DNA of 64,000 nt, taken from positions 12,412 to 76,411 of the forward strand of contig CAIRNJ010000060.1 in the NCBI GenBank assembly GCA_903879915.1, written 5' to 3'. Below, one piece after another: positions 12,406 through 64,000 of the stretch. The notes under the pieces are model-generated. The model was not told where the DNA came from and did no database searches. It saw only the letters and a list, made by a program, of their open reading frames with translations. The first letter of the stretch is position 1, and the number at the start of each line of letters is the position of its first letter. The translations under genes were made by a program, and so were the position numbers. The DNA comes from an uncultured Elusimicrobia bacterium. GTDB lineage: Bacteria; Elusimicrobiota; Elusimicrobia; Elusimicrobiales; UBA9959.

Positions 12406-12453
12406 TTGTCTATTTTTAGTGATGTTTTTGCTATACTGGTGGGTAGGAGAGAC

Positions 12454-13368
12454 ATGTACACCCGTATAGACATCAAAATAACGTTCAGGTGCAACAATAA
12501 ATGCGATTTCTGCGCTCAGGGGCATAAACGGGATATATGCACCGACCGCACCCCGCAGCGCGTCTATGCCGACCTGGCGGCCGCCTATAAGCGCGGGGCC
12601 CGGGGCGTGGTCTTTACAGGCGGAGAGCCCACCATGCACCCCTCCGTGGTAGATTTCGTGGCCCGGGCTAAGAAATTGGGCTACCAGAAGATACAACTGC
12701 AGACAAACGGGCGCACCTTCGCCTACCCCAGCCTGCTGGAGCGGCTTAGAAAGGCCGGAGCCAATGAAATGGGGCCTTCGCTGCACGGGGCGAAAGCCGA
12801 GACCCATGACGGCCTTACGCACGCCCCCGGGAGCTTCCTGCAGACGGTCTCCGGCATAAGGAACGCCGCCCGGATGGGCTTTAACGTTATAACCAACACG
12901 GTCATAACCTCCGCCAATTACAGGGAACTTCCTGCCCTGGCGGGAATACTCGTTAAATTGGGCGTTACGCAGTACCAGTTCGCTTTCGTCCACATCATAG
13001 GTTCGGCCCTGGAAAACAAGAAATGGATAGTGCCGAAAAAGACGGAGATCATGCCCTGGGTGAAGAAAGGCCTCGATGCCGGGATCAAAAGCGGGATCGC
13101 CTGTTACACAGAAGCCATTCCGTTCTGCCTGATGCAGGGCTACGAGAACTGCGTGGCGGAACGGATAATCCCGGAAGGCCCGGTGGCGGACGGCGACAAA
13201 TTCATAGAGAACTACGGCGACTACCGCCGCAACGAGGGCAAGACCAAAGGCCCGCGCTGCCGGACCTGTAAATATTTCAAGATCTGCGAAGGCCCGTGGC
13301 GGGAATATCCTGAAATTTACGGGTGGAAGGAATTCCGCCCGGTCCTGGATAAACCCGGGAGCCGCTGA
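12454..13368 (+). CDS. Radical SAM protein with Cys-rich SPASM/twitch-like C-terminus
   Basis: CNNKCDFC (CX3CX2C) near the N-terminus, GGEPTMHP, and C-terminal CRTCKYFKICEG. Start moved to the ATG at 12454, preceded by GGAGAG. Confidence 0.85.
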   Translation: MYTRIDIKITFRCNNKCDFCAQGHKRDICTDRTPQRVYADLAAAYKRGARGVVFTGGEPTMHPSVVDFVARAKKLGYQKIQLQTNGRTFAYPSLLERLRKAGANEMGPSLHGAKAETHDGLTHAPGSFLQTVSGIRNAARMGFNVITNTVITSANYRELPALAGILVKLGVTQYQFAFVHIIGSALENKKWIVPKKTEIMPWVKKGLDAGIKSGIACYTEAIPFCLMQGYENCVAERIIPEGPVADGDKFIENYGDYRRNEGKTKGPRCRTCKYFKICEGPWREYPEIYGWKEFRPVLDKPGSR

Positions 13369-34483: not shown

Positions 34484-34491
34484 AGTTAGAC

Positions 34492-37390: not shown

Positions 37391-37398
37391 CGGCGGAG

Positions 37399-38928: not shown

Positions 38929-38996
38929 ACTCGGAGCGCGGTCACGGAAATACGGGATTATTTGAGTATATTGTATGATATTATTCAGAACGCGCT

Positions 38997-45792: not shown

Positions 45793-46535
45793 TTGTCCTG
45801 CCGCCCCGGCTTCCAGGAGAAGCGGCGCTCCACGCGCACTATGGCCTCGTTCATCAGGTAGCCGGTGGCGCCTATGGTTATCATGCCGCACATGACGTTA
45901 GGAATGTTCATCATGGACCGGTTCATCTCTATCATGTACCCGAGCCCCGAGGTGGAAGCTATCAGTTCGGCCGCGATCACGCTCATCCAGGCGAAGCCCA
46001 GGCTTATACGCAGGCCGGTCACTATAAAAGGGAGGGCCGAAGGTATGGCCACATCGAACAGCAGCATTTTTCTGTCCGCGCCCAGCGTTCGCGCGGCGTT
46101 CAGGTGTATCTCCTCGATGTGGCGCACGCCGGAAAAAGTGTGAAGGAAAAGCGGAAAAAAAGCGGCTATAAAAGTTATGAAGTTGCTGGCCCCGTTGCCT
46201 TTTATCCCGAACCAGAGTATGGCCAGCGGGATCCAGGCTATGGGCGGCACCGGCCGCAGCAGTTCGATGACCGGCAGCAGATAAGCGCGGACCCCGGCGC
46301 GGGACGCGGCCAGTACCCCCAGCGGAACGGCGGCCGCGAAACCCAGCGCCAGGCCGGTCAGCACCCTCCGGAGGCTGGCCGCCAGGTATATAAAGAGTAT
46401 GCCCCCCTGCGCCGCATCCTTGAAGGCGTAAAGCACCTTGGTCGGCGGCGGCAGCAGGTAGGGGTTCAGCCAGCCCAGCAGGCTCGCGGCCTGCCAGGCC
46501 GCGGCTATCAGAATTACAGAAACGAGTCCTTTCAC
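45789..46535 (-). CDS. ABC transporter permease (SsuC/TauC-like, BPD_transp_1)
   Basis: 248 aa with about 6 TM segments and the EAA-like loop NAARTLGADRKMLLFDVAIPSALP. Confidence 0.85.
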   Translation of the reverse strand: MKGLVSVILIAAAWQAASLLGWLNPYLLPPPTKVLYAFKDAAQGGILFIYLAASLRRVLTGLALGFAAAVPLGVLAASRAGVRAYLLPVIELLRPVPPIAWIPLAILWFGIKGNGASNFITFIAAFFPLFLHTFSGVRHIEEIHLNAARTLGADRKMLLFDVAIPSALPFIVTGLRISLGFAWMSVIAAELIASTSGLGYMIEMNRSMMNIPNVMCGMITIGATGYLMNEAIVRVERRFSWKPGRQDK

Positions 46536-48608: not shown

Positions 48609-49285
48609 TATTTTCCCTTTGATCCGGCCGAAACTTTATCGTCGATGCCGCCTGACAGGGTGCCAGCACATCTTATTTTATCAAATTCCCTGAGCGCGGA
48701 CTCCTGGTCGAAGTCCTTCTTGGGAAAGAACAGTTCGATCTGCGCGAGCAGGGAATTTTTTTCGCAGTAAACGTAGCCCAGCAGCCCCCGGCGGCTTATC
48801 AGGTCCTCGGAGCCGGCCCCGTACGCCATGCTGGGAGTGGCGGCAAGGACCTTAACTTTGTTTTCACCGGGGCCGGTCCGGAGGTCCCTGGGCCGCAGCT
48901 GCGGCGGCACCTCGAATTCGGTAGTTATCATGCCGGGATAGGCCGCGCCGCCGGCATACAGCGCGTCTATACGGAGAAAACGCTCGGCCATGGTCTTTTC
49001 AGCCTGCGCGCGGCTGATATTTTTCGTCAGTTCCAGACGGAGCCGCACCGCGCCGGCGCCGGTATCCAGCGTCCGGAAGGCCGGCAGCGCGCCGCGCCAG
49101 TCCCCGCGCCGGTAATCTTTGGAAACGCTGAAAGCTCTGGTGCCGGCATACTCCAGCCCCGCCGCGGCCAGCGCGGCTTTGAAAGGGCGGGCGCCGCCTG
49201 AACCGGCGGCCGCCGGGCAGGCCGGCACCGCGGCCAGCAGGACCAGCATGACCAGCAGGAATAGTTTACGGCTCGAAGATCTCAT
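48608..49285 (-). CDS. Exported hypothetical protein (possible lipoprotein)
   Basis: LFLLVMLVLLAAVPAC signal sequence. No recognisable domain. Overlaps both neighbours. Confidence 0.5.
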   Translation of the reverse strand: MRSSSRKLFLLVMLVLLAAVPACPAAAGSGGARPFKAALAAAGLEYAGTRAFSVSKDYRRGDWRGALPAFRTLDTGAGAVRLRLELTKNISRAQAEKTMAERFLRIDALYAGGAAYPGMITTEFEVPPQLRPRDLRTGPGENKVKVLAATPSMAYGAGSEDLISRRGLLGYVYCEKNSLLAQIELFFPKKDFDQESALREFDKIRCAGTLSGGIDDKVSAGSKGK

Positions 49286-51245
49286 TTATAACTTTGCCCT
49301 GCATGTAGCCGGGGACCGGGACGCCGGTAAGCTTCAGCAGCGTAGGCAGCTGGTCGGCGTTGCTGATATTGCGCTTCAGCCTGTAGCCTTTTTTTACTCC
49401 GGGCCCCATTACTATGAAAGGCGTCCACAGCGCGGAGTTCTTTTCGGCCAGCAGCGCCTGTTTATAACCGCCTTCGCGGGCGTCGCGGAACACCGGCAGC
49501 CCAGCGGACATTTCCTCCGTCAGACCGTAACCGGGCTTCATCACCAGCAGCAGGTCCGGCACGCGGTCTTTGGGCATCCTGAGCCCGCCGGCGTCCTCCC
49601 AGTTCACAACGCGCTCTATCGGCGCCGCGGCGCCGTCCCGCAGGCCCAGCAACATTTTCTTCACCTTCCCGCGAAGGGCGTTATATTCCGGCCCGCCGCC
49701 GCGCCGCCACTGCCCGGCCAGGCCGTCGGGGCGCAGGTAAACGCCTATCATTTTAAGATGCGCCACTTTCGTTCCGGCCCAGTCTATGGCCGGCGCGCCG
49801 GTAGCCGGGTTGGTGCTGAAACTCAAAAGCCCTTCTTTCGCGAACAGATCGTTCAGCATGACGTAGCGGTTCAGCGGGGCTATACCGTGGTCGGAACTGA
49901 GCACTATCAAAGAATTACCGCCCGCGCTTTTCATCGCCTCGCCCAGCACCGCGTCCAGGCGCCGGTACATCTCTTCCAGGTCGGCCAGGGCCGCGGCCCG
50001 CTCGCCCGGGGAGGCGGCGGCGTAGCGCGAACTGTTCCTGTCCACGTAAGGCAGCCACCAGCGGCTTTCCAGCATCTGGTTGGGCGTGTAGGTGTCCTGA
50101 ATAAAAACGTCTGGCTTCAGAGTGGAATAGATGAACGGCACCAGCGCCCGGTGCCAGTCCAGCGCCATCTTCGCCTCGGAGAAGAAAGTGTTCTTTTCCT
50201 CCGGCGAATTGTTCAGCTGGGCCGGCCAGTTGTCGGGGAAATCCACCATCGGGCCCAGCGCCTTTTCCATGGCCGGCACGGCGTCGGCCGGCTCCACGGT
50301 GGTGCGATTCATGGGGTCGAACAACAGCCGGGCCTTCATGGCGCCGGAAGGCGCGAGGCGTATCAGCGAAACCTTAAGGCTGGACTCCAGCGGCTGGGTT
50401 CCCCACGCCAGGCTTACCGGGGTCCACCCGCTCCAGGAATCCGGCCGGCCGAGGTCGGCGATGGCCGACTCTTTGTCGAAAGAGAACAGCGCGCCGGAGT
50501 AATTTTCGGCCTGGTCGTCGGTGCTGTCGTAAATATAGGCGTAGACGGTGGTGCCGTAGGCGGCCAGCTCCGCCTCGAGGGGCGGAGAGTAGGAGACCGG
50601 CGAGGCCTTCCAGCCCCGCGCCGGAGCCGTTCTTACCTGGCGCGTCAGCTGCGGGCCCATGAAGAAAAGCCGCGCGGAATCCCCGGCCGGGGGGCGGGCG
50701 TCAGCCGACGCTTCGAAATTTATCGCCCAGAAATCAGAGCCCCAGGAACCCCAGCGGCCGCGTATGGTCAGCCCCGACGACATTTCCGGCGGCGTAGAGC
50801 CGGGCACCGAGACCACGGCCACGGTACGGCCCGCGTCCTCGAAAAGTTTCCAGGCCGGCGGCACTTTCTTGGCGCTGGAGGAGAAGCCCGAGATGGACGG
50901 CTTGGCCAGCCCGTAGCCTTCCAACCGCATCTGCCCGTCGGCCACGCCGTGCAGTTCGGGATAGCAGCCCGTCATCAGCGTGGCGAAGTTAACCGGGGTA
51001 TGGGAAGGATAGACCGGCATGGAATAGCCGTAGGAACCGTTCTCCATCATCCTGCGTATATTAGGATATTCCCCCTCCGCCGCCAGTTCAAAAACATCTT
51101 TTCCGCCCAGGTCCGCCCTCATCCCGTCGGGCACGAACCAGTAAAGGCCGGCGTTCTTTTCGCCGCAGTAAGCGGAGGTCCCCGCCGCCGCCAGCAGCAA
51201 CAGGGCCAGGAGCCGGACCGCCCCAGGGATTTCAGCGCGTCTCAT
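49266..51245 (-). CDS. Secreted nucleotide pyrophosphatase/phosphodiesterase-type (AP superfamily) protein
   Basis: Signal peptide; YWFVPDGMRADL; YPSHTPVNFATLMTGCYPELHG (Thr nucleophile); VLSSDHGI. Confidence 0.75.
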   Translation of the reverse strand: MRRAEIPGAVRLLALLLLAAAGTSAYCGEKNAGLYWFVPDGMRADLGGKDVFELAAEGEYPNIRRMMENGSYGYSMPVYPSHTPVNFATLMTGCYPELHGVADGQMRLEGYGLAKPSISGFSSSAKKVPPAWKLFEDAGRTVAVVSVPGSTPPEMSSGLTIRGRWGSWGSDFWAINFEASADARPPAGDSARLFFMGPQLTRQVRTAPARGWKASPVSYSPPLEAELAAYGTTVYAYIYDSTDDQAENYSGALFSFDKESAIADLGRPDSWSGWTPVSLAWGTQPLESSLKVSLIRLAPSGAMKARLLFDPMNRTTVEPADAVPAMEKALGPMVDFPDNWPAQLNNSPEEKNTFFSEAKMALDWHRALVPFIYSTLKPDVFIQDTYTPNQMLESRWWLPYVDRNSSRYAAASPGERAAALADLEEMYRRLDAVLGEAMKSAGGNSLIVLSSDHGIAPLNRYVMLNDLFAKEGLLSFSTNPATGAPAIDWAGTKVAHLKMIGVYLRPDGLAGQWRRGGGPEYNALRGKVKKMLLGLRDGAAAPIERVVNWEDAGGLRMPKDRVPDLLLVMKPGYGLTEEMSAGLPVFRDAREGGYKQALLAEKNSALWTPFIVMGPGVKKGYRLKRNISNADQLPTLLKLTGVPVPGYMQGKVINEIFEP

Positions 51246-52651
51246 GACACGGCCTCTTTTTCCCGGGTAAGCTCCCAGATCCTGTGGAAAAAGTCCCTGA
51301 GCAGGCCTTCGCCGAGCCCGGTCATGTTCACTATCTTGTCGTCGTTGTCCCCCACCCGCCGCGCGGAAAGCTCGCGCAAAAATCCTACGGTATCGGCTAT
51401 CCTGCCCGTTCTCAGCGCGTCCGCGTACAGAGCAGTGCCGGGAAAAGGCACCAGGTATTTCACCAGCGGGATAAAGTCGCCTTTGCGGATGAAGTCCAGC
51501 ATGCCTTTAAGCGAATTTTTCGTCTCGCCCGGCAGCCCGACTATGAACAGCCCCCGCGCCTGCAGGCCGGCCCCCGCCGCGGCCGCCAGCGCGGCGTCTA
51601 TCTGGGCGATGGTGGTGCCCTTGCGGCTGAGGTTCAGCACGGCCTGGTCATAGGATTCGATGCCGAACCAGACACCCTGGCACCCGGTCCGTTTTAATTT
51701 TTCCGCGAAAGCGGCGCTGACGCCCGTGACCCTGGCGAAACAATGGTATTTCACCCCGTGCCTGCGGAGTATGCCGCAGACGGCCATCGCGCGCGGCGCG
51801 TCGGCGTTGAAAGTCAGGTCGTTGAGCCAGGTATAGCCGAAGTTCGTGGTCTCTTTAAGATGCGCCACCTCGAGCTCGAACCTTTCAAGGCTCTTAACCC
51901 TTAACGCGGGGATGGTCTTGTAGCAGAAGGAGCAGGCGCAGGGGCAGCCCCTCGACGAGGAAATTATTATCTGGCCCGCTTTAACTATTTCTTCGTAGTT
52001 CGGCCAGACCGTGTAATCGGGAAAAGGCAGGTTATCCAGGTCCTGTATCTGCGGCCGGGGCGCCGTGAGTTTTACGCCGGCGGCGGTCTTCAGGGCCATG
52101 CCCTTTATGCCGGACAGGTCGTTCTGCCCGCGTTCCAGTACGGCGTCAAGGAACTCTATCAGCGTCAGCTCGGCCTCGCCCAGCACGGCGCAGTGGGCGG
52201 CGGTGCTGTCCAGCAGCAGTTCGGGCAGCGACGAGACCAGCGGCCCGCCCAGGAAGACCAGCCTTTCCGGGCGGGCCTGCTTGAGCGCTTTCGTCAGCGC
52301 CTGCAGAAAGATGAAAGAGTCGCAGTAGGTGGCGATCCCGACGATATCGGCGGCGGCCAGTTCTTTTACGGCCCGGCCGGTGTTTTCTCCGCCCGCCGGC
52401 CGGCAGTCCAGCACTTTAAGGGTATAGCCGAGCTTTTTAATTAAGGTCGCCACCGCGGTAAAGCCTTCGAAAGGTCCGCTTATCAGGAATTCCCGGCCGG
52501 GAGTAGGGAGCTGCGGAGAGGGCGGAATTACCAGCGCCACCGTTTTTCCGCGGGCCGCGCGGCCGCTCTTCCCGGCCAGGCCGGCCAGGACGCGTTCGCA
52601 GGGGTCGGCCGGGCCAGCGCAGGACAGCGTTCCATTCACATGCCGCGTCAT
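51242..52651 (-). CDS. B12-binding-domain radical SAM protein (paralogue of 43391-44929)
   Basis: IVGIATYCDS...VFLGGPLVS and SSSRGCPCACSFCYK. N-terminal VALVIPPSPQLPTPG...GPFEG matches VALVVPPSPFTVPRG...RPFEG in the paralogue. Confidence 0.85.
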   Translation of the reverse strand: MTRHVNGTLSCAGPADPCERVLAGLAGKSGRAARGKTVALVIPPSPQLPTPGREFLISGPFEGFTAVATLIKKLGYTLKVLDCRPAGGENTGRAVKELAAADIVGIATYCDSFIFLQALTKALKQARPERLVFLGGPLVSSLPELLLDSTAAHCAVLGEAELTLIEFLDAVLERGQNDLSGIKGMALKTAAGVKLTAPRPQIQDLDNLPFPDYTVWPNYEEIVKAGQIIISSSRGCPCACSFCYKTIPALRVKSLERFELEVAHLKETTNFGYTWLNDLTFNADAPRAMAVCGILRRHGVKYHCFARVTGVSAAFAEKLKRTGCQGVWFGIESYDQAVLNLSRKGTTIAQIDAALAAAAGAGLQARGLFIVGLPGETKNSLKGMLDFIRKGDFIPLVKYLVPFPGTALYADALRTGRIADTVGFLRELSARRVGDNDDKIVNMTGLGEGLLRDFFHRIWELTREKEAVS

Positions 52652-52654
52652 TTC

Positions 52655-53329
52655 TCAGTATTTAATTATCTGGTAGCCGTCGTTCAGGAAAGAAGCGATG
52701 TCGACGGGAACGGAGGGATCTTCTGAAAGCGGCAGCCCTTTCGCCTTAAGCCCGCTGTATACTCCCAGTTGAGTGGCTGACAGCGCGCATAGCGTGAACG
52801 GGATCTTCGCGGCCGTAAAATCCGCCAGAAGGCGCCAGCCGGCCTCTCCGGCGGCGCCGGAGATCCTGACCGGCTTCTCCCCCTTCCCGGCCGGCAGGGA
52901 GAACATATGCGGTCTTTCAGGCAGTATGGCGAGATTGGGGACCATGGAGGAAACGTACACGCCGTCCACCAAAGTCTTCTGACAGATCATTCCCTCTACG
53001 ACCCCGCCCAGGCATTCAGTGGAAATGAGCACGGCAGCCTCCGCCGCGCGCGACGCCCCCAGGATAGCCATAGTCCTTTCGGGTTTCAAATATGCGCCGA
53101 AGCCGTCCTTGCCCAGGAAATAGACCACGGCTTCCCCCTGAAAGACAGCCCGCACGTCCAGGCCGGCCTTCTGCAGTTCCATGCCGCGCCAAAGAGCCAT
53201 ACTGAAACCGAACCGGTCGTCCGTCCTGGACTGTACGATCAAAAGGACCTTCTTACGGCCCTCCTGGGAAAAAGCATGGGAAGAAAAAAGCGCAAGGACC
53301 GCGAAAGCGATAAATATTTTCTTAAGCAT
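52655..53329 (-). CDS. Exported DsrE/DsrF-fold-like protein (tentative)
   Basis: Signal peptide MLKKIFIAFAVLALFSSHAFS, KVLLIVQSRTDDRFGFSMAL...VRAVFQGEAVVYF, and IPFTLCALSATQLG. Start moved to the ATG at 53327-53329. The longer ORF's ARLPRF-repeat N-terminus is an antisense reading of the neighbouring repeat. Confidence 0.35.
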   Translation of the reverse strand: MLKKIFIAFAVLALFSSHAFSQEGRKKVLLIVQSRTDDRFGFSMALWRGMELQKAGLDVRAVFQGEAVVYFLGKDGFGAYLKPERTMAILGASRAAEAAVLISTECLGGVVEGMICQKTLVDGVYVSSMVPNLAILPERPHMFSLPAGKGEKPVRISGAAGEAGWRLLADFTAAKIPFTLCALSATQLGVYSGLKAKGLPLSEDPSVPVDIASFLNDGYQIIKY

Positions 53330-53346: not shown

Positions 53347-53658
53347 TTAGTATGAGCCGTGGGAACCGTGCGAGCCGTGGGAGCCGTGCGAACCGTGGGA
53401 ACCGTGGGAGCCGTGCGAGCCGTGGGAACCGTGGGAGCCGTGCGAGCCGTGGGAGCCGTGCGAGGAATGAGAGCCGTGCGAAGAATGGGAACACGCGGCT
53501 TCGGAGGATTTAACGGAGACCAGCAGCGCGGCCAGCCCCATGCCCAGGCCGATGGAGGTGCCGGCCATCATGTTTATCTTCTTTTTGGTTATCCGGCCTT
53601 CTTCGCTGACCAGGAATTTTTGAAGGCTTTTTTTAAACTCCGGAAGTTTTTCCGCCAT
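53347..53658 (-). CDS. His-Xaa-Ser repeat protein (HxsA-like): charged N-region, hydrophobic segment, then 15 x H-(G/S)-S
   Basis: MAEKLPEFKKSLQKFLVSEEGRITKKKINMMAGTSIGLGMGLAALLVSVKSSEAAC-S-(HSS,HGS,HSS,HGS x12)-Y. RBS AAGGGG lies upstream of the ATG. The gene is preceded by a 186-nt AT-rich spacer. Confidence 0.85.
   Translation of the reverse strand: MAEKLPEFKKSLQKFLVSEEGRITKKKINMMAGTSIGLGMGLAALLVSVKSSEAACSHSSHGSHSSHGSHGSHGSHGSHGSHGSHGSHGSHGSHGSHGSHGSY
53353..53490 (-). repeat. Tandem 9-nt coding repeat (15 units) encoding Ser-His-Gly/Ser
   Basis: Units gccgtggga, gccgtgcga and accgtggga alternate. Ser codons TCC/TCG/TCT/TCA and Gly codons GGC/GGT vary between units. Confidence 0.95.
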
Positions 53659-53742
53659 AACCTGCCCCTTTTACCCTGCCCGGCCGCTGCCGCTTTCCGG
53701 CTTTTTCCCCATAAAAATAGCCGGGCCTCCGGCTGAAGCCCA

Positions 53743-53784
53743 ATTATATACATATTGTATACCATTTCCCCGCGGATTCCGCAA
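53743..53784 (-). promoter_or_regulatory. Candidate sigma70-type promoter for the His-Xaa-Ser gene string
   Basis: Minus strand reads TTGCGG (53784-53779), then 17 nt, then TATACA/TACAAT, then a perfect TATAAT (53748-53743). An 11-nt palindrome GCGGAATCCGC overlaps the -35 element. This is the only sizeable spacer in about 14 kb of co-directional genes. Confidence 0.4.
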
Positions 53785-53844
53785 TGGCCCGCCCCCCGGG
53801 AAAATACGCCCGGCCGGCCGCCGCAAAGCCCGGAATAAAAAAGG

Positions 53845-54615
53845 CTACAGACCGGAGTTCAGGCAGCCGGCCGCCCGGCTCAGGCCGGAATTGAGCACCA
53901 GCCTTGCAGGAACAGCGCCGCCGGCAGGCTTTTTCAGCCCGCATATGCCGCGGTAGAGGGCGGAATTGTCGGAAAAAAGCGCGTTCCCGGAAACAAAAAG
54001 GCGCTCCTTGAGCACGCCCGCGGGGATCTCCGCCGCGGCCGCGCCGCGGCAGGGCATGCGGCAGGCGTCGTTGAACTTCCGGGTAAGATAGCAGATGCGG
54101 GAGAACGCGGAAAATTTGTACGGGTAGTGCAGGTTAAGCGCGGCTCCCGGGACCTTTGAGAACAGCCGGAACCCCTCCAGGTCGTCTATTTCAACGGCGC
54201 GCACGCCGCGGCCGAACAGCTGCTTAAAACCGGGCGAGGCGGCGAAAAATGACAGGTCGCCGGCCAGCACCCTGCCCAGGGAGATGCGCGGCGGCCGTTC
54301 TCCCCGGCGGCAAAGCCGGTCGAGCACCCCCAAATCGTTGACCACCAGCTCGCCGCGGGCTCCCCAGGATCTGACGAGCGGCACCAGCGCCATGAATTTT
54401 TCCAGCCATTTATCCGTCATCAGGGAGGACGCCAGCACTATGCGCCCGCGAAAGCCCGCGCGCAGCGCCCGGAGCCGGCCGGCGGACGGCAGCTTGACCT
54501 GGCAGAATTCATCCCCGGCGTAAACCGCCTGAAAACGGGACAAAAGGCCGAAGTCTGGATTTTCCAGTTCGCTCGCCGACAGGACTACCGCGTACTCTGT
54601 ACCGGGAGTTCTCAA
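53845..54615 (-). CDS. U32-family protein, UbiV-like (short form)
   Basis: AVYAGDEFCQVKLP near the N-terminus (compare the UbiV-type YLGE-x-VC), a TIM-like middle, and Cys cluster SRICYLTRKFNDACRMPC. Paralogue of 62996-63790. Overlaps the upstream U32 gene by 4 nt. Confidence 0.55.
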   Translation of the reverse strand: MRTPGTEYAVVLSASELENPDFGLLSRFQAVYAGDEFCQVKLPSAGRLRALRAGFRGRIVLASSLMTDKWLEKFMALVPLVRSWGARGELVVNDLGVLDRLCRRGERPPRISLGRVLAGDLSFFAASPGFKQLFGRGVRAVEIDDLEGFRLFSKVPGAALNLHYPYKFSAFSRICYLTRKFNDACRMPCRGAAAAEIPAGVLKERLFVSGNALFSDNSALYRGICGLKKPAGGAVPARLVLNSGLSRAAGCLNSGL

Positions 54616-55412
54616 GGGGCTTTCCTCCCCCCGGCGGCCAGCAGCTTTTTCCTGACGGTCGATAGCCGCAGCATCCCGCGCTTGTTGCGTTCGAAATCAT
54701 GGAACCGCCCGAGCTTGAAATAGCGGACCCCGAGCGCGTGGAACGCGGCGATATTGCGCACCAGCTCCGCCGCCGGCAGCTGCGTCAGGCGGAAACGGCC
54801 GCCGCGCGCGGGCAGGCTCCTCTGGCAGTTCAGATAGCCAGGCTCCTCCGTGCTTTCGATGTCGTGGTAGCGGCAGCTGCCGTCCACGTTGGCGCAATAG
54901 CCGTTTATCATGGCGAAAGCCTCGGTCTCCAGGCCGCGGCGGTTCTGCACTATGCCGCGCGCTTCCGACGGGAGGAGATGCTGCGGCAGGGTTATCCGGG
55001 AAATTCCCAGCCGGGCGTAAAATTCCATCGCGGCGCTGTTAAAACAATGCCCCAGCGTGCTGAGCACTAAATTCCCGGAAAAACCTCCGCCCCGGAGGAA
55101 CTTTATCAGGCCCGGGTCGCGGATTATAAGCCCCGCGCCCCCCGCTTTTACGAAGCGGCCCGCCGCGGCGGACAGCGGGGCGTATTCCTCCCGCGGGTAG
55201 ATCTCGTTCACGGCCAGGTAAAGCGGGCGCCCGGCGCCGGCGCAAAGGCGCAAAAGGGCGTCGGCGTCCTTTTCCAGGGAAAAGCTTAAAGAAGCCCGCC
55301 GGTGGTTGCGGAACCGCGCCAGCGCGAAATAAAGCTCGTCGGCGCCTTTGCGCAGGAACCACCGCGCCTCGTCGAGATTGGAAACGCCGGCCACTATTTT
55401 CATCTGGTCCAT
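54612..55412 (-). CDS. U32-family protein, UbiU-like
   Basis: MKIVAGVSNLDEARWFLRKGADELYFAL, LYLAVNE, IIRDPGLI, and ETEAFAMINGYCANVDGSCRYH, which fits the U32 signature E-x-F-x(n)-G-x-x-C-x4-G-x-C. Confidence 0.7.
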   Translation of the reverse strand: MDQMKIVAGVSNLDEARWFLRKGADELYFALARFRNHRRASLSFSLEKDADALLRLCAGAGRPLYLAVNEIYPREEYAPLSAAAGRFVKAGGAGLIIRDPGLIKFLRGGGFSGNLVLSTLGHCFNSAAMEFYARLGISRITLPQHLLPSEARGIVQNRRGLETEAFAMINGYCANVDGSCRYHDIESTEEPGYLNCQRSLPARGGRFRLTQLPAAELVRNIAAFHALGVRYFKLGRFHDFERNKRGMLRLSTVRKKLLAAGGRKAP

Positions 55413-55415
55413 CCG

Positions 55416-56822
55416 TCAGATCAGCCTGCCGTGCACGCCTATCATTATCCTCGAAGCGCCGGTTATCCCTTCGGCGGAATATTTAGGGTCCCGCATCTCT
55501 TTATAGCAGCGGGCGAAATCTTTTTCTTCGAAACCGTCCAGGCGCTTTATCAGGTACGGCGGGTTCCTGTCCCATTCCATGCCGAACTTCGCCGCGTCCT
55601 TCTCGAACTGCGTATTGGGGAAAACCGCCGTGTGAAAGACCTGTACCCCGGCGCGCAGCGGGTTGTTTACCCGGGGCAGCCGTACCCGGTCGCAGGCTTT
55701 GAGGCAGCCGCGCAGGCTTTTCAGGAAGCCTGCCGGCGTATCGCCTGGCAGGCCCAGCATCAGCTGGAACACCACGTTCGCTTTCGGCGCGTATTTTTTC
55801 ACCAGGGCCAGGCGTTTTTTCAGCTCGCCCGGGGGCAGCGGCGTTCTTCCGGCCAGCCTGAGCACCCTGCGGTCCAGGGACTGCACGCCGAAACAAAAAA
55901 GGAATTTTCCGTAATCCGCCGCCGCGGCCGTCGCCCGGTCCCAGTACCGGAGATCGCAGTGGATTATCCACCGCATGAACCTGCCTTCGGTACCGGAGCG
56001 GACGTACCGCAGCACTTCGCGCGCCCGCCGGCCCTGCATCAGCAGGTCCTGGTCGGTCACGAACACCCGGAAAATATTCCTGTCGTCCCGCTGCCCCACG
56101 TCCAGCGGGGCGCGCGCCGCCAGCCAATCCAGTTCGCTGCGCACCCGTTCCAGCGAAAAGGTCCTTACTCCGCCCCGGTTGGACCAGACGCAGTATTTGC
56201 ACCGGAACGGGCAGCCGCGCGAGGTTTCATGAACGAAATAGTGGTAATCCCCGGAGTCAAAAAGGCCCGCGAGATAAGGGGAAGGGATGATATCCAGGTT
56301 TTCAATTACCGGCCGCGGCGGGCCTTCTACCGGAAGCCCGTCCGCCAGCGCAACCGTCCCGGGGGTCCCGGCCCACGGCTTGCCCGCGAGAAAGCGCGAA
56401 AGGAGCTCGGTGAAGGTGAGCTCCCCCTCCCCCCGGACAAGAATATCGGCCAGCGAATCCTTCAGCACCGCGGCGCCCCGGGCCGTGGCGTCCGCGCCGC
56501 CGAGGATTATCCGGGTGGAGGGAGACGATCTCTTAAGTTCCCTGCAGAGGGAGATGACGGCCAGGGCGTTCCAGATATAGCAGGAAAAACCGACCACCCG
56601 GGGTTTGTCGCCGAGGATCGCGGCCGCGGCGGCCGCCGGGTCTTTCAAAGAAAGCTCTATGCCGCATTCCCGTATAGTCACGGCCGCGCGCTTTTTCAGA
56701 ACGGAATCCGCGTACGTCTTCAGGCAGCCCAGCGCCAGCGGGTTCCCGTAAATGACGGGGTCGGAAACGGAGACGAGCGTGACCTTGAGCGGTTTGGACG
56801 TTTTCATAACGCGGGCTGTCAA
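55416..56822 (-). CDS. B12-binding-domain radical SAM protein
   Basis: VVGFSCYIWN...IILGGADAT and HETSRGCPFRCKYCVW. Confidence 0.85.
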   Translation of the reverse strand: MTARVMKTSKPLKVTLVSVSDPVIYGNPLALGCLKTYADSVLKKRAAVTIRECGIELSLKDPAAAAAAILGDKPRVVGFSCYIWNALAVISLCRELKRSSPSTRIILGGADATARGAAVLKDSLADILVRGEGELTFTELLSRFLAGKPWAGTPGTVALADGLPVEGPPRPVIENLDIIPSPYLAGLFDSGDYHYFVHETSRGCPFRCKYCVWSNRGGVRTFSLERVRSELDWLAARAPLDVGQRDDRNIFRVFVTDQDLLMQGRRAREVLRYVRSGTEGRFMRWIIHCDLRYWDRATAAAADYGKFLFCFGVQSLDRRVLRLAGRTPLPPGELKKRLALVKKYAPKANVVFQLMLGLPGDTPAGFLKSLRGCLKACDRVRLPRVNNPLRAGVQVFHTAVFPNTQFEKDAAKFGMEWDRNPPYLIKRLDGFEEKDFARCYKEMRDPKYSAEGITGASRIMIGVHGRLI

Positions 56823-62958: not shown

Positions 62959-62996
62959 GCCGCCGCGCGCCTCAGGGCGCCGGCGGCTTTCCGTTT
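62959..62996 (+). terminator. Candidate intrinsic terminator between convergent genes
   Basis: GC-rich hairpin gccgccgcgcgcc-tcag-ggcgccggcggc (one bulge) followed by tttccgttt. Confidence 0.45.
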
Positions 62997-63790
62997 CAGG
63001 GCAGCGGGCAGTAGACCAGGCGGTCCACGCGCAGCAGTTCAAGCTCTTTTTCCGAAGAATAGAATTTGCCGGGGAACTCCATAAAAACGGTATTCCCCCG
63101 TATCAGCAGCTTTTCCTTCACCCAGGGATGGTCCACTTTAAAAGCGCAGGCGCGGCATTCGCGGCCGCAGTCTATGCCGCGCACCGAATCCCTGGGCTGG
63201 ATGTCCCGCAGCCCCACCAGGCAGGTGCGGGTGGTGGTAAGGTTGAGGTACGGGTAGTGCAGCGTGAAAGCGAAGCCTTCCGGTTCGAAGCCGCAGCCGC
63301 TCCGGCTGAAGTTAGTGCGCGGCATGGCGCCCGCGGCCGAGATCTCGTAGCGCCGGATGCCGCGCTCAAGGAAAAAATCCAGCGAGCGGCGGTTGAGCAG
63401 GGAAAGCGACCCGCTGTTCTGCTCGAAGACGTTGTAGGCGAACTGCCGCCCGGCGCCGAGTTTCACCGGCAGCTTCGCCCGGGCCGCCAGCGCCAGCGCG
63501 CCAAAATCGTTGATGGTTATCTCAAGCCGCCCGGCGTCGAGGCGCCCGGTCCTGAGCAGCCGGGCCAGCTCCCTGAAAATAGCGGCCAGGCTGGCCGCGC
63601 CTTTGTCGGTCAGCAGCGGCGTGAGCAGGCAGACTTTCTTCCCCAGCTTCTGAAAACGGACCAGCTCCGCGCAGACGGCGGTCTCCAGCAGGTTCTCGCA
63701 GAATTCCGGCCCCAGGTAAACCCAGTTAAAAAGGGCAGGCACGGCCTTAGCCCCGCCGCCGCCCAGTCTTATGCCGTGTTCTATGGCCAT
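62996..63790 (-). CDS. U32-family protein, UbiV-like (paralogue of 53845-54615)
   Basis: WVYLGPEFCENLL and LHYPYLNLTTTRTCLVG...IDCGRECRAC. Start moved to the ATG at 63788-63790 (MAIEHGIRL...). Confidence 0.55.
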   Translation of the reverse strand: MAIEHGIRLGGGGAKAVPALFNWVYLGPEFCENLLETAVCAELVRFQKLGKKVCLLTPLLTDKGAASLAAIFRELARLLRTGRLDAGRLEITINDFGALALAARAKLPVKLGAGRQFAYNVFEQNSGSLSLLNRRSLDFFLERGIRRYEISAAGAMPRTNFSRSGCGFEPEGFAFTLHYPYLNLTTTRTCLVGLRDIQPRDSVRGIDCGRECRACAFKVDHPWVKEKLLIRGNTVFMEFPGKFYSSEKELELLRVDRLVYCPLP

Positions 63791-63791
63791 G

Positions 63792-64000
63792 TCAGTATTT
63801 CTTCCCGTCCCAGCCTTCCAGCCTTTTAATGAACCGTTCGCGCGCTTCGCGGGCCGGGTAAGCCGCGGCAAGCTCCCGGGCGTGGTCGAGCGTAGCGCGC
63901 ATGTCGGCCACTTTCCGCGCCTTTACGTCCGGCGGGTCCCGGCGGGTGCCGTATTTAAGATACCCGACCCCGGCGGCGAAATAATCGTACAGCGACGCCG
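63792..64000 (-). CDS. C-terminal fragment of an upstream gene, probably the UbiU-like U32 partner (runs off right edge)
   Basis: Not in ORF track. The hand-translated open frame of 68 codons ends ...YLKYGTRRDPPDVKARKVADMRATLDHARELAAAYPAREARERFIKRLEGWDGKKY, with stop at 63792-63794, 1 nt from the next ATG. The call rests mainly on synteny with the 54612/53845 pair. Confidence 0.35.
   Translation of the reverse strand, partial: ASLYDYFAAGVGYLKYGTRRDPPDVKARKVADMRATLDHARELAAAYPAREARERFIKRLEGWDGKKY

What the first reader, a model, noticed from the sequence alone, without database searches (positions are those of the whole stretch)
53347..53658. Exported protein ending in 15 uninterrupted His-Xaa-Ser repeats: candidate radical SAM substrate or metal-binding partner
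The 103-aa product has three parts:
- a charged amphipathic N-region (MAEKLPEFKKSLQKFLVSEEGRITKKK);
- a signal-like hydrophobic core with an A-x-A-type site (LAALLVSVKSSEAA);
- a tail C-S-(HSS, HGS, HSS, HGS x12)-Y.

The 9-nt DNA repeat uses four Ser and two Gly codons in varying order. This indicates selection on the peptide and limits slippage. His-Xaa-Ser repeat proteins define the bioinformatically described but functionally unknown Hxs system, where they co-occur with paired radical SAM maturases. Here the repeat protein sits in a far larger context with nine radical SAM proteins, U32 hydroxylase-like proteins and a Nif-like reductase. Possible roles are a RiPP-like precursor (His or Ser cross-linking, methylation or hydroxylation), a periplasmic Ni/Co/Zn/Cu-binding protein feeding cofactor assembly, or a scaffold on which a small molecule is built.
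Basis: partly seen in the sequence, partly recalled or inferred. Interest (0 to 1): 0.8.

Follow-up and report, generated by a model that had tools for sequence, protein, structure and literature searches.

The report
Second copy of HxsA4 repeat-peptide precursor
This small gene is real and belongs to a catalogued but untested family (HxsA4); its radical-SAM maturation genes lie just past the window's end, next to a nearly identical first copy, so it is a conserved member of a known kind, not a new system.

Summary
Window 53347-53658 (minus strand) encodes a 103-aa protein with three parts: a charged leader, a hydrophobic segment, and Cys-Ser-(His-Xaa-Ser)x15-Tyr.

It passes the curated NCBIfam model HxsA4 (76.6 bits, cutoff 55). 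It does not match canonical HxsA (6.8 bits, cutoff 121.65).

The window has no HxsB or HxsD. However, the source contig (81.5 kb, Elusimicrobiota MAG) carries them about 13 kb upstream on the same strand, starting about 2.4 kb past the window's end. The order there is HxsD, HxsD-like, HxsB, a first HxsA4 copy (104 aa), a DsrE-like secreted protein, an HxsC-like rSAM, U32, and a 264-aa protein.

The finding is therefore copy 2. It sits in a diverged paralogous set (U32, 256-aa protein, DsrE-like protein) flanked by B12-radical SAM genes.

The copy 1 sequence comes from a close relative. It differs from copy 2 by 38 synonymous and 1 non-synonymous codon changes plus one extra Gly. The flanking paralogues share only 27-52% identity. 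This indicates strong purifying selection and rules out a neutral microsatellite.

The canonical HXS system was shown in 2026 to be an antiphage system. The HxsA4 type has not been tested.

Most likely role: an HxsB/HxsD-matured, exported repeat peptide. What the mature peptide does is unresolved.

The parts
53347..53658 (-). hxsA4 copy 2 (103 aa): HxS-repeat precursor peptide; this is the finding
   Evidence: ORF. NF038313 HxsA4 76.6 bits against cutoff 55. 387 homologues. The exact protein is on 15 contigs. DNA is identical in L005 and L006.
53578..53658 (-). Leader, aa 1-27 (MAEKLPEFKKSLQKFLVSEEGRITKKK). It is conserved family-wide and is the probable recognition element for HxsD/HxsD-like/HxsB.
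   Evidence: A fixed-register consensus [LIF]-P-x-[IL]-K-K-x-[IL]-K-x-F-L-x-S-E-E-G-[KR]-[IVM]-x-K-K is present in 116 of 121 members. The recognition role is inferred.
53512..53577 (-). Hydrophobic segment, aa 28-49 (INMMAGTSIGLGMGLAALLVSV). It is a signal-like or transmembrane segment with a small residue (A32/G33) at its start.
   Evidence: Maximum 15-mer Kyte-Doolittle mean is 2.05. The n-region has 8 K/R against 4 D/E. The boundary position is G/A/S in 98% of members. Topology (N-terminus in, C-terminus out) is inferred from charge.
53488..53511 (-). Linker KSSEAACS (aa 50-57) with an A-x-A-type site (SEA|AC) and a semi-conserved Cys
   Evidence: Read from the sequence. A Cys lies within 7 aa upstream of the repeats in 51 of 121 members. 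Cleavage is not predicted by any tool here.
53350..53487 (-). Core: 15 His-Xaa-Ser units (aa 58-102) plus the terminal Tyr103
   Evidence: The family range is 5-30 units. The C-terminal residue is W or Y in 80 of 121 members. The median number of K/R in the repeat region is 0.
53659..53844 (-). 186-nt upstream intergenic region. It holds TATAAT (about 53748-53743), a perfect palindrome TATACAATATGTATA (53761-53747), a hairpin with a T-run (53743-53711), and an RBS AAGGGG 8 nt before the ATG.
   Evidence: These are consensus matches only; function is not shown.
52655..53329 (-). Secreted 224-aa protein with a DsrE/DsrF-like fold and a conserved Cys (YTVCSxSA). It starts 18 nt after the hxsA4 stop codon and is a conserved downstream partner in Elusimicrobia.
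   Evidence: Paralogue after copy 1 shares 52% identity. Homologues follow HxsA4 in L010 (two copies), L003 and L050-52. Only 26 representatives exist among 1.84 billion proteins. AF2 pLDDT is 80. Top PDB matches are 3pnx, 2qs7 and 2fb6, all DsrE-like, with weak E-values, probabilities 0.9-0.99 and TMt 0.74 for 2fb6.
53845..54615 (-). 256-aa protein of unknown function with conserved Cys residues. It is a paralogue of the 264-aa protein that closes module 1.
   Evidence: 27% identity to window 62996-63790. Only 3 homologues found. No Pfam or NCBIfam hit. The AF2 model is poor (pLDDT 54) and the fold search gave only weak TIM-barrel-type matches. No profile similarity to U32.
54612..55412 (-). 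U32-family protein (266 aa), paralogue of the module-1 U32 (315 aa)
   Evidence: PF01136 47.5 bits; weak UbiU and TrhP hits. 35% identity to the L053 U32.
55416..56822 (-). B12-binding radical SAM protein (called as 463 aa). It is the orthologue of the gene directly downstream of HxsA4 in L001.
   Evidence: PF02310 and PF04055. KedN5-type is the best NCBIfam hit, below cutoff. 64% identity to L001 10566-11969.
51242..52651 (-). Second B12-binding radical SAM protein (469 aa), downstream of the DsrE-like gene
   Evidence: The gene order is conserved in L005, L061 and L062.
62996..63790 (-). 264-aa protein, the last gene of Hxs module 1. It anchors the link between the window and the contig that carries the core module.
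   Evidence: An exact-sequence look-up places it directly after HxsD-HxsDrel-HxsB-104aa-224aa-rSAM305-U32(315) on contig ERZ1426829. That contig continues to the 103-aa gene. The same is seen on contig MOqZNu1- of ERZ1426617.
63792..64000 (-). 3' end (68 codons) of the module-1 U32 gene (315 aa), cut by the window's end. The Hxs core lies beyond the window at about window-equivalent 66.4-68.9 kb.
   Evidence: Translation. HMM hit 1.8e-32. The mapping window = 69080 - contig position comes.
12406..13368 (+). HxsC4/HxsC-related small radical SAM protein (320 aa), about 40 kb from the finding
   Evidence: Best NCBIfam hits are HxsC4 NF038332 (150.6 bits, cutoff 500) and HxsC TIGR03977 (99.7 bits, cutoff 267.9). 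It is related but not an equivalog. About 31% identity to the small rSAMs of L001 and L004.

Best explanation
The gene is the second of two hxsA4 genes in an Elusimicrobiota Hxs4-type locus.

Its product is a ribosomal precursor with four parts:
- a 27-residue conserved cytoplasmic leader (core motif ...KFLVSEEGRITKKK);
- a roughly 22-residue hydrophobic export or anchor segment;
- a short linker with an A-x-A site and a Cys;
- a 46-residue core, (His-Xaa-Ser)x15-Tyr.

Proposed steps, each marked as shown or inferred:
1. Inferred from an almost identical leader: the leader is recognised by the HxsD / HxsD-like / HxsB (radical SAM-SPASM) machinery encoded 13 kb upstream on the same strand, next to copy 1.
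2. Inferred by homology with canonical HXS, where HxsB/C/D are needed for processing and a +8 Da change in an HxS unit: HxsB modifies His-Xaa-Ser units in the cytoplasm. HxsC-related small rSAMs may contribute, and the neighbouring B12-rSAM/U32 genes may tailor the product further.
3. Inferred: the hydrophobic segment takes the core across the inner membrane. The leader is then removed by signal peptidase at SEA|AC and/or by the GxGD (A24-like) membrane peptidase that recurs in these loci, possibly at the conserved small residue at the leader/hydrophobic boundary.
4. Inferred: the modified His-rich repeat peptide acts in the envelope together with the co-transcribed secreted DsrE-like protein.

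Shown here: the family membership, the physical linkage to HxsB/HxsD, the duplication, and the purifying selection.

The end function is not shown. An envelope role analogous to the HXS antiphage barrier is my leading guess, at roughly one in three. The confidence value applies to the identity and maturation logic (an HxsA4 precursor served by HxsB/HxsD), not to the end function.
For: Family membership:
- NF038313 76.6 bits against cutoff 55, full length.
- The leader motif is conserved in 116 of 121 homologues in a fixed register.
- GenBank names leader-type homologues HxsA4.

Partners:
- In at least 22 loci from many phyla, the HxS-repeat gene directly follows HxsD, a small protein and a roughly 490-aa rSAM.
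- These are identified as HxsD TIGR03976, HxsD_rel NF038315 and HxsB TIGR03978 (454-456 bits, cutoff 370).

Linkage:
- Contig MOqZNu1- (ERZ1426617, 81,503 bp) carries the window's exact HxsA4. It also carries HxsD-HxsDrel-HxsB(P0280)-104aa-224aa-rSAM-U32-264aa.
- The window's exact 264-aa protein bridges both copies on ERZ1426829.

Copy 1:
- L053 shows its tail ...HGSHGSGY*.
- L058 and L059, from a close relative, give the full 104 aa, 99% identical to copy 2.

Selection:
- 38 synonymous against 1 non-synonymous codon differences between the copies.
- 18 of 27 tail codons differ synonymously within the same organism.
- The flanking paralogues share only 27-52% identity.
- Both copies keep 15 units.

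Conservation: L062, from another strain, has ...HGSHGSHGSY* at the same position.

Peptidase: an A24-like family with both catalytic Asp motifs occurs in HxsA4 loci of at least 4 phyla.

Precedent: HXS maturation and export (PMC13128918).
Against: - No HxsB, HxsD or A24-like gene lies within the 64-kb window. Copy 2 is separated from the core by about 13 kb that includes four genes on the opposite strand, so action in trans is assumed.
- The copy 1 sequence of this exact organism is known only for its last 27 residues. The full sequence comes from a relative (carbamoyltransferase 97% and TPR protein 78% aa identity).
- The A24-like gene is seen in relatives only. The source contig ends 199 nt upstream of hxsD.
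- HxsA4 differs strongly from the tested HxsA. It has no peptidoglycan-binding domain, 15 rather than 5 repeats, and no basic residues in the repeats. The DNA-binding antiphage mechanism may therefore not transfer.
- There is no HxsC equivalog.
- The locus does not look like a defence island, and no HxsA4-type module was found on viral contigs.
- No expression, cleavage or modification data exist.
Confidence: 0.75

Rival explanations
1. It is an antiphage effector of the HXS kind. The matured HxsA4 peptide sits in the periplasm or at the membrane surface and blocks entry of phage DNA, as shown for canonical HxsA.
For: It shares the maturation machinery: HxsB and HxsD homologues are on the same contig. 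Canonical HXS needs HxsB/C/D for HxsA processing and export, and every HxS repeat is required (PMC13128918). Canonical HxsB is common on conjugative plasmids, with 413 records. The wide, patchy distribution of HxsA4 across phyla, including CPR and DPANN, fits a defence module.
Against: HxsA4 lacks the peptidoglycan-binding domain that is essential in HxsA, and its repeats carry no basic residues (median K/R 0). The proposed electrostatic DNA binding is therefore weaker. There are no PADLOC hits for HxsA4, HxsD or HxsD-like. The neighbours are biosynthetic and transport genes rather than defence genes. No HxsA4-type module was found in IMG/VR, and only canonical-type HxsB was found in phage records. 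HxsB here is only about 31-34% identical to plasmid HxsB.
Confidence: 0.3
2. It is a His-rich metal-binding protein (Ni, Co, Zn or Cu) in the periplasm. It would work as a store or chaperone for cofactor assembly by the neighbouring Nif-like and B12-rSAM enzymes, with no essential covalent modification.
For: The core holds 15 His within 45 residues. The rSAM, NifH-like and HemN-like neighbourhood is conserved around Hxs in three Elusimicrobia (window, L001, L050). In one Omnitrophota locus, CutA1, DsbD and a Cu-oxidase-like gene lie upstream.
Against: The family-wide invariant partners are HxsB, HxsD and HxsD-like, which are peptide-maturation proteins, not metal transporters. The precise conservation of a 27-residue leader is hard to explain for a simple metal sponge. 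No Ni, Co, Zn or Cu transporter, hydrogenase, urease or CODH gene lies in the window. The predicted location is periplasmic, whereas cofactor assembly is cytoplasmic.
Confidence: 0.12
3. Copy 2 is dedicated to a second tailoring pathway. The same precursor is modified by the module-2 enzymes (B12-rSAM methyltransferases, U32-like enzyme, 256-aa protein, SAM methyltransferase) to give a product different from that of copy 1.
For: Copy 2 is embedded in a co-directional array: MTase, B12-rSAM, U32, 256-aa protein, hxsA4, DsrE-like gene, B12-rSAM and onward. The U32, 256-aa and DsrE-like genes are old, diverged paralogues of the module-1 genes (27-52% identity), which suggests subfunctionalised accessory sets. 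The B12-rSAM orthologue is directly adjacent to HxsA4 in L001. The 186-nt upstream region with promoter-like and terminator-like elements suggests separate regulation.
Against: The two precursors are essentially identical, so nothing in the peptide specifies a different route. No homologue of these accessory enzymes has a demonstrated peptide substrate. B12-rSAM, U32 and the 256-aa protein are not conserved with HxsA4 outside Elusimicrobia. This reading is compatible with, rather than exclusive of, HxsB maturation.
Confidence: 0.2
4. It is not a functional gene. The repeat would be a neutral 9-nt microsatellite that happens to open a reading frame.
For: It is a tandem 9-nt array with exact repeated words up to 35 nt. 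Alternative ORFs in other frames run through the repeat.
Against: It gives a full-length curated-model hit and has hundreds of homologues with a conserved non-repetitive leader. There are 38 synonymous against 1 non-synonymous differences from the paralogue, and the unit number is identical. It is conserved at the same position in other strains. An RBS is present.
Confidence: 0.01

Closest known systems
NCBIfam NF038313 'His-Xaa-Ser repeat protein HxsA4', with companion models HxsD_rel NF038315 and HxsC4 NF038332
   Same: The protein passes the curated cutoff over its full length. It has the same leader, hydrophobic segment, HxS repeats and aromatic C-terminus as GenBank proteins named HxsA4. 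HxsD, HxsD_rel and HxsB lie on the same contig.
   Different: This copy is not adjacent to HxsB. It is a second copy 13 kb away, inside a paralogous accessory set. The small rSAMs score far below the HxsC4 cutoff. No paper in the searched library describes HxsA4, so the family is a curated annotation without tested function.
Canonical HXS antiphage system HxsA/HxsB/HxsC/HxsD (Li et al., Nat Commun 2026, PMC13128918; first defined in silico by Haft and Basu 2011, cited from memory)
   Same: It is an HxS-repeat substrate with an HxsB-family rSAM/SPASM enzyme and HxsD. It has an N-terminal export signal, and by analogy is matured in the cytoplasm and then exported.
   Different: [quoted passage not shown] HxsA4 is 103 aa, has no such domain, and has 15 G/S-type repeats with no K/R. 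There is one HxsB plus an extra HxsD-like protein, and no HxsC equivalog. The distribution is Elusimicrobia, Omnitrophota, CPR, DPANN and Myxococcota, rather than 99.7% Pseudomonadota. The locus is chromosomal and biosynthetic in character.
Triceptides: three-residue cyclophane RiPPs made by rSAM/SPASM enzymes on aromatic-X-X motifs, including His-C2 to X3-C-beta links on HAA, HTK and HNR (PMC11499958)
   Same: His-Xaa-Ser is formally an aromatic1-X2-X3 motif, repeated in tandem. The maturase is an rSAM/SPASM enzyme. The precursor carries an N-terminal leader.
   Different: HxsB matches the cyclophane-synthase models (YhhB, GrrM/OscB, AmcB) at only 44-60 bits, far below their cutoffs. The only chemistry reported for an Hxs system is +8 Da, not the -2 Da of a cyclophane. 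No crosslink is shown here.
Class III (prepilin-type) signal peptides processed by A24 GxGD aspartyl peptidases
   Same: A positively charged N-terminal leader is followed by a conserved small residue and a roughly 20-residue hydrophobic helix. An A24-like membrane protein with both catalytic Asp motifs recurs in HxsA4 loci of at least 4 phyla.
   Different: The leader is much longer, at about 30 aa, and has its own conserved FLxSEEG motif. There is no G|F-x-x-x-E signature and no pilus-assembly genes. The Pfam hit is marginal (27.1 bits against 26.5). The peptidase gene has not been seen in this organism, because the contig ends before its expected position.
His-rich metal-binding proteins and tails (for example Hpn, and the His-rich tails of HypB and UreE; cited from memory)
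   Same: Very high His density in a low-complexity, probably disordered segment.
   Different: Those proteins are cytoplasmic, have no conserved leader or rSAM partners, and sit with metalloenzyme maturation genes. None of this applies here.

Membership tests
HxsA4 (NCBIfam NF038313) | Whole-protein score at or above the curated cutoff of 55 bits | tested here: met
   76.6 bits, residues 4-103 aligned to model positions 1-93 of 93. Copy 1 of the relative scores 73.5 bits.
HxsA4 (NCBIfam NF038313) | Conserved N-terminal leader (K-K-x-[IL]-x-x-F-L-x-S-E-E-G-[KR]) followed by a hydrophobic segment | tested here: met
   KKSLQKFLVSEEGR is present. The motif occurs in 116 of 121 homologues in a fixed register.
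HxsA4 (NCBIfam NF038313) | In-register His-Xaa-Ser tandem repeats running to an aromatic C-terminus | tested here: met
   15 units followed by Tyr. The family has 5-30 units, and W or Y is last in 80 of 121 members.
HxsA4 (NCBIfam NF038313) | Genomic association with HxsB, HxsD and HxsD-like | tested here: met
   They are not in the window. They are on the same 81.5-kb contig, 13 kb upstream and adjacent to copy 1. Identities come from Pfam PF27806, from the NCBI name of a member of the same 90% cluster, and from NCBIfam hits in the relative L058.
Canonical HXS antiphage system (HxsABCD) | [quoted passage not shown] | tested here: not met
   6.8 bits against cutoff 121.65. At 103 aa there is no room for such a domain, and the only Pfam hit is a spurious Collagen match. 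It has 15 repeats without K/R.
Canonical HXS antiphage system (HxsABCD) | HxsB radical SAM/SPASM maturase (TIGR03978) | tested here: met
   The orthologues in L010 and L008 score 454-456 bits against cutoff 370. P0280 and P0139, on the source contig, are 76% identical to the L010 protein. A member of their 90% cluster is named HxsB by NCBI.
Canonical HXS antiphage system (HxsABCD) | HxsC radical SAM maturase (TIGR03977), paired with HxsB | tested here: not met
   The module-1 rSAM (305 aa) scores 66.8 bits against cutoff 267.9. Window 12406-13368 scores 99.7 bits. The HxsC4 model gives 150.6 bits against cutoff 500. These are related paralogues only.
Canonical HXS antiphage system (HxsABCD) | HxsD (TIGR03976 / PF27806) | tested here: met
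   PF27806 is recorded on the source contig. In the close relative L058, TIGR03976 scores 50.6 bits against cutoff 50.
Canonical HXS antiphage system (HxsABCD) | Protection against phage by blocking DNA entry | not testable with these tools
   This needs experiments. There is no PADLOC model hit for HxsA4, HxsD or HxsD-like.
Triceptide (three-residue cyclophane) RiPPs | Aromatic1-X2-X3 motif in the core | tested here: met
   His-Gly/Ser-Ser x15. His-type motifs HAA, HTK and HNR are known substrates (PMC11499958).
Triceptide (three-residue cyclophane) RiPPs | Maturase belongs to the cyclophane-synthase (3-CyFE) clades | tested here: inconclusive
   HxsB hits the YhhB, GrrM/OscB and AmcB models at 44-60 bits, far below cutoffs of 310-445 bits. 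It shares only the SPASM superfamily.
Triceptide (three-residue cyclophane) RiPPs | Aromatic-to-C-beta crosslink (-2 Da per unit) | not testable with these tools
   This needs mass spectrometry or NMR. The only Hxs datum is +8 Da in HxsA.
Class III signal peptide / A24 peptidase substrate | Dedicated GxGD aspartyl peptidase in the locus | tested here: inconclusive
   It is present in the relatives L058-60, L001 and L050, and in Omnitrophota and CPR loci, with both Asp motifs. It is absent from the window, and its position is not covered by the source contig.
His-rich metallochaperones | Association with metalloenzyme maturation or metal transport genes | tested here: not met
   No such genes were found among about 50 window proteins scanned.

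The most novel reading that the evidence does not exclude
Hxs4-type systems are an uncharacterised, phylogenetically broad class of rSAM-matured envelope peptides. They occur in CPR, DPANN, Omnitrophota, Elusimicrobia and Myxococcota.

The proposed features are:
- A prepilin-like precursor, with a conserved 28-residue leader, a small residue and a hydrophobic helix.
- Modification on every one of its 5-30 His-Xaa-Ser units by HxsB, possibly as His-to-Ser crosslinks.
- Leader removal by a dedicated GxGD (A24-like) peptidase.
- A mature product that is a membrane-anchored or surface poly-heterocyclic His array.

In Elusimicrobia the precursor is duplicated and wired to two diverged accessory sets (DsrE-like, U32, B12-rSAM). 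These lie next to a conserved Nif-like reductase cluster.
Probability: 0.2. Interest if true: 0.75.

Novelty: new member of a known kind. Interest (0 to 1): 0.42.

Why it matters
The canonical HXS system has only just been shown to be a new kind of antiphage barrier, and its radical-SAM chemistry (+8 Da in one HxS unit) is still unsolved.

HxsA4-type systems are simpler. They have one HxsB, short precursors and up to 30 identical target units, and they are far more widespread across uncultured phyla. A 15-unit substrate such as this one would amplify any per-unit mass change, which makes it a convenient handle for solving the Hxs chemistry.

This locus adds three concrete, testable leads:
- Two old paralogous precursor genes are kept almost identical by selection, so both the exact sequence and the repeat number matter.
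- A secreted DsrE-like partner is co-transcribed with each copy.
- An A24-like peptidase recurs across phyla and is a candidate leader peptidase.

For this particular gene the practical message is narrower. It is an already catalogued family member, and its 'missing' maturases were simply cut off by the window boundary.

Tried and rejected
1. Orphan hypothesis. I first concluded that the gene lacks HxsB and HxsD, because tblastn and HMM searches of the window were negative. I rejected this once exact-protein look-ups showed the module on the same contig, beyond the window.

2. Recent gene conversion as the reason the two copies are so alike. Rejected: nucleotide identity is only 78-88% and nearly all differences are synonymous.

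3. UbiU/UbiV-like U32 pair. The 256-aa and 264-aa partner shows no profile similarity to U32. Its AF2 model is poor, and the fold search gave only weak generic TIM-barrel hits. This is left open.

4. Full copy 1 sequence from the same organism. It is not among the top 120 homologues, and the contigs that carry it have no DNA on file. Only the tail (L053) and the relative's full copy (L058) could be obtained.

5. Copy 2 in other strains. L061 starts after the gene. L062 shows only the last 10 codons.

6. Defence-library scan. PADLOC gave nothing for HxsA4, HxsD or HxsD-like, and only generic rSAM hits otherwise.

7. Viral contigs. The 11 hits are off-frame translations of other triplet repeats, with no Hxs genes.

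8. Rfam. Nothing in the window. The upstream palindrome has no second exact copy in the window.

9. Broad alignment for the genome scan. 

10. One of my A24-like seed sequences (L050 13459-14436) turned out to be an unrelated family. The L010 hit from that seed is discounted.
Full report
**1. The observation**

Window 53347-53658 on the minus strand is an ATG-initiated ORF of 103 codons. Its product reads MAEKLPEFKKSLQKFLVSEEGRITKKK-INMMAGTSIGLGMGLAALLVSV-KSSEAACS-(HSS,HGS,HSS,HGSx12)-Y.

One search counts 15 in-register His-Xaa-Ser units, made of 2 HSS and 13 HGS. They use four Ser codons (all TCN) and two Gly codons. GGT makes up 4 of 13 Gly codons in the repeats, against about 4% in other window genes. 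There are eight distinct 9-mers, and the longest exact DNA repeat is 35 nt. TRF reports the 9-nt array at 53354-53482.

The overlapping ORFs in other frames are side-products of the repeat. The frame is validated by a full-length curated-model match and by homologues that share the non-repetitive leader (see section 2).

**2. Which family**

Against NCBIfam the protein scores 76.6 bits on NF038313, 'His-Xaa-Ser repeat protein HxsA4' (cutoff 55). It scores 51.1 on HxsA3 (cutoff 65) and only 6.8 on the original HxsA model TIGR03979 (cutoff 121.65).

A search of 5.8 billion proteins found 387 relatives. Several are named HxsA4 in GenBank, from Omnitrophota, Actinobacteria and Patescibacteria.

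The family shares a leader in a fixed register: [LIF]-P-x-[IL]-K-K-x-[IL]-K-x-F-L-x-S-E-E-G-[KR]-[IVM]-x-K-K-x-hydrophobic-x-K-hydrophobic-[G/A]. This is followed by a hydrophobic stretch of about 20 residues, often A-x-A plus a Cys, and then 5-30 HxS units. The chain usually ends in Trp or Tyr (80 of 121) or in GGWC (13 of 121). There are essentially no Lys or Arg residues in the repeat part.

**3. What is known**

That is out of date.

Li et al. (Nat Commun 2026, PMC13128918) showed that canonical HxsABCD is an antiphage system that blocks phage DNA entry. In that system:
- HxsA needs HxsB, HxsC and HxsD for N-terminal processing.
- HxsA carries a +8 Da modification in its last SHRSS unit.
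- HxsA acts in the periplasm.

That system is 99.7% proteobacterial. No paper in the searched library mentions HxsA4, HxsA2 or HxsA3.

**4. The conserved partners of HxsA4**

In the loci of the closest homologues (L001-L004), and in a sample of 43 genome loci, the repeat gene directly follows three genes. These are HxsD, a protein of about 70 aa, and a radical SAM/SPASM protein of about 490 aa. HMM searches found this trio in at least 22 loci.

NCBIfam identifies the three as HxsD (TIGR03976), HxsD-like (NF038315) and HxsB (TIGR03978, 454-456 bits against cutoff 370).

There is no HxsC equivalog. The small rSAMs of about 300 aa that litter these loci hit HxsC and HxsC4 best, but far below the cutoffs.

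A further recurrent partner has no NCBIfam name. It is a polytopic membrane protein that just passes Pfam's type IV leader peptidase model (A24; 27.1 bits against 26.5). It keeps both catalytic motifs (D..xGKIRN and WSAGDAKLF) in Elusimicrobia, Omnitrophota, Saccharibacteria and other CPR loci.

**5. The apparent paradox and its solution**

The window contains none of HxsB, HxsD, HxsD-like or the A24-like protein. For a while the gene therefore looked like an orphan.

Exact-sequence look-ups resolved this:
- The window's own HxsA4 lies on an 81,503-bp contig of an Elusimicrobiota MAG (ERZ1426617, contig id MOqZNu1-).
- The same contig id carries, at its end, HxsD(135)-HxsD-like(77)-HxsB(504)-104 aa-224 aa-rSAM(305)-U32(315)-264 aa.
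- The window's exact 264-aa protein (62996-63790, minus strand) sits on a 63.6-kb contig of a sister sample. That contig shows the whole stretch in one piece. It runs from the HxsD-to-264-aa module, through DUF5989/80 aa/carbamoyltransferase (opposite strand), TPR(680), 347 aa (opposite strand), MTase(223), B12-rSAM(463), U32(266) and the 256-aa protein, to the 103-aa gene (the finding) and the 224-aa gene.

The last 207 nt of the window encode the C-terminus of the 315-aa U32. In window-equivalent coordinates the core module lies at about 66.4-68.9 kb. That is 2.4-4.9 kb beyond the window's end, and about 13 kb upstream of the finding on the same strand.

**6. The finding is copy 2**

The 104-aa gene after HxsB is another HxsA4.
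- Its 3' end is readable in L053, a contig that carries the window's exact 264-aa protein. It reads ...SHGSHGSHGSHGSHGSHGSHGSHGSGY*.
- The full sequence is available from a close relative (L058 and L059, NCBI assemblies; carbamoyltransferase 97% and TPR protein 78% aa identity to the window).
- That sequence is 99% identical to copy 2. It has one Val-to-Ile change in the leader and one extra Gly before the final Tyr. It has the same 15 units, with HSS at units 1 and 3.

At the DNA level the two differ at 39 of 104 codons, 38 of them synonymously. Within the same organism, 18 of the 27 comparable tail codons differ, all synonymously.

The genes around the two copies are old paralogues: the 224-aa proteins share 52% identity, the U32 proteins 35%, and the 256-aa/264-aa proteins 27%.

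This combination excludes both recent gene conversion and a neutral microsatellite. It shows strong purifying selection on the leader, on the exact repeat sequence, and on the repeat number in this lineage.

Across species the unit number varies from 5 to 30 but always stays in frame. Copy 2 is present at the same position in another strain, where L062 shows ...HGSHGSHGSY* followed by the DsrE-like gene and the B12-rSAM. The gene's DNA is identical in two further contigs.

**7. Neighbours of copy 2**

- Downstream partner. Eighteen nucleotides after the stop codon begins a 224-aa secreted protein found almost only in Elusimicrobia Hxs loci. There are 26 representatives among 1.84 billion proteins, and homologues follow HxsA4 in L010, L003 and L050-52. 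Its AF2 model (pLDDT 80) matches DsrE/DsrF-like structures best. The E-values are weak, probabilities are 0.9-0.99, and TMt is 0.74 for 2fb6. A Cys in the motif YTVCSxSA is conserved.
- Upstream genes. These are a 256-aa protein of unknown fold, a U32-family protein, a B12-rSAM and a SAM methyltransferase. The B12-rSAM's orthologue directly follows HxsA4 in L001 (64% identity).
- Further downstream. A second B12-rSAM, a phosphodiesterase-like protein, a porin, an SsuA/NMT1-type ABC transporter, a third B12-rSAM and a methyltransferase.
- Upstream intergenic region (186 nt). It holds a TATAAT, a perfect 15-nt palindrome, a hairpin with a T-run, and a good RBS. Separate regulation of copy 2 is possible but unproven.

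**8. Mechanism**

Shown here: family membership, linkage to HxsB/HxsD, duplication, and selection.

Inferred:
- The near-identical leader means copy 2 is handled by the same HxsD/HxsD-like/HxsB machinery as copy 1.
- By homology with HXS, the HxS units are modified in the cytoplasm.
- The hydrophobic segment, with positive charge on its N-terminal side, carries the core outward.
- The leader is removed by signal peptidase and/or the A24-like peptidase. The 98%-conserved small residue at the leader/hydrophobic boundary resembles a class III signal cleavage site.
- The product acts in the envelope with the DsrE-like protein.

The chemistry is unknown. Triceptide synthases that link His-C2 to the C-beta of the third residue on HAA, HTK and HNR motifs (PMC11499958) are an attractive analogy. 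However, HxsB is only a distant SPASM relative of them, and the one Hxs datum is +8 Da, not -2 Da.

**9. End function**

The antiphage analogy is the best lead, at roughly 0.3. It is weakened by several points:
- There is no peptidoglycan-binding domain.
- The repeats contain no basic residues.
- The neighbourhood is biosynthetic and transport-related.
- There are no PADLOC hits for the Hxs4-specific proteins.
- No Hxs4-type modules were found on viral contigs.

By contrast, canonical HxsB abounds on conjugative plasmids.

A plain metal-binding role has no contextual support.

**10. Verdict**

The gene is a genuine, selected member of a catalogued family. Its apparent isolation from paired maturases was a window-boundary artefact.

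What is new is modest but concrete:
- a satellite second precursor copy under extreme constraint;
- duplicated and diverged accessory sets;
- a DsrE-like partner;
- a recurrent A24-like peptidase that links HxsA4 precursors to prepilin-type processing.

I class it as a new member of a known kind, of moderate interest.

Noticed in passing
L058:2897-3868; L001:6680-7645; L050:14448-15410; L004:12290-13444; L009:12245-13399; L014:16737-17885; L018:3156-4364: A polytopic membrane protein marginally matches Pfam Peptidase_A24 (27.1 bits against 26.5). It keeps both GxGD-type catalytic motifs (D..xGKIRN and WSAGDAKLF). It recurs in HxsA4 loci of Elusimicrobia, Omnitrophota, Saccharibacteria and other CPR, and has no NCBIfam name. 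It is a candidate dedicated leader peptidase.
   Followed up: partly
window 17900-21671 (minus strand); L001:15687-19515; L050:1937-5825: A NifH fused to a NifD-like domain (840 aa), plus a second Oxidored_nitro protein (424 aa), is conserved near the Hxs module in three Elusimicrobia. It occurs with HemN-like rSAMs, B12-rSAMs, aminotransferases and, in L001, a TP_methylase. This is a nitrogenase-like reductase cluster of unknown substrate.
   Followed up: partly
window 29463-41464: Six sulfatase-like genes (alkaline-phosphatase superfamily) are interleaved with a weak B12-rSAM-like gene (32193-33419) and unknown genes. A further type I phosphodiesterase-like gene lies at 49266-51245. Nearby are an SsuA/Tau-type ABC transporter (44941-47545), an NMT1-like protein (41454-42632) and a phosphate-selective-type porin (47577-48608). 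This looks like an organosulfur or organophosphate scavenging island.
   Followed up: no
window 53747-53761: A perfect palindrome TATACAATATGTATA overlaps a TATAAT. It lies immediately upstream of a hairpin with a T-run, in the 186-nt region before hxsA4 copy 2. It could be an operator or attenuator. There is no second exact copy in the window.
   Followed up: partly
window 53353-53487: Gly codon GGT is used for 4 of the 13 Gly residues in the repeats, against about 4% in other window genes. Ser is encoded only by TCN codons, although AGC supplies 29% of Ser elsewhere. Copy 1 uses a different synonymous mix (GGG and TCT). Codon choice seems to break up DNA identity between units.
   Followed up: partly
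L012:9624-10352; L023:9996-10643; L024, L030, L031, L037, L038: Myxococcota and deltaproteobacterial HxS-repeat proteins also pass the HxsA4 model (92-194 bits) and sit next to HxsD/HxsD-like/HxsB. However, they have an acidic N-terminal region with a different motif (LPSF..(D/E)A) and no hydrophobic segment. They often occur as two tandem copies. The HxsA4 model therefore covers two architectures.
   Followed up: partly
window 5350-7104 (minus strand), with 3040-3732 and 7117-7857: A 584-aa protein combines FliF C-terminal (YscJ_FliF_C) and FliG middle and C-terminal domains. It is flanked by MotB/OmpA-like and MotA/ExbB-like genes. This is an apparent FliF-FliG fusion in an Elusimicrobiota MAG.
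   Followed up: no
window 11592-12302 (minus strand): An IS200-like Y1 transposase (PF01797) lies directly next to the HxsC4-related rSAM pair at 12406-14675. The same three genes are syntenic in L008 (64-78% identity), close to that genome's Hxs module.
   Followed up: no
L044:9998-10958: An unclassified bacterial MAG has two tandem HxsA4 genes (131 and 179 aa) with near-identical leaders. They are surrounded by at least four extra SPASM-type rSAMs, one of them PapB-like. Multi-copy precursors therefore recur in this family.
   Followed up: no
window 55416-56822 and 51242-52651: Both B12-rSAMs flanking copy 2 hit the PADLOC candidate-defence model PDC-M51A (70 and 34 bits). This is probably generic B12-rSAM similarity, but it was not resolved.
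   Followed up: no
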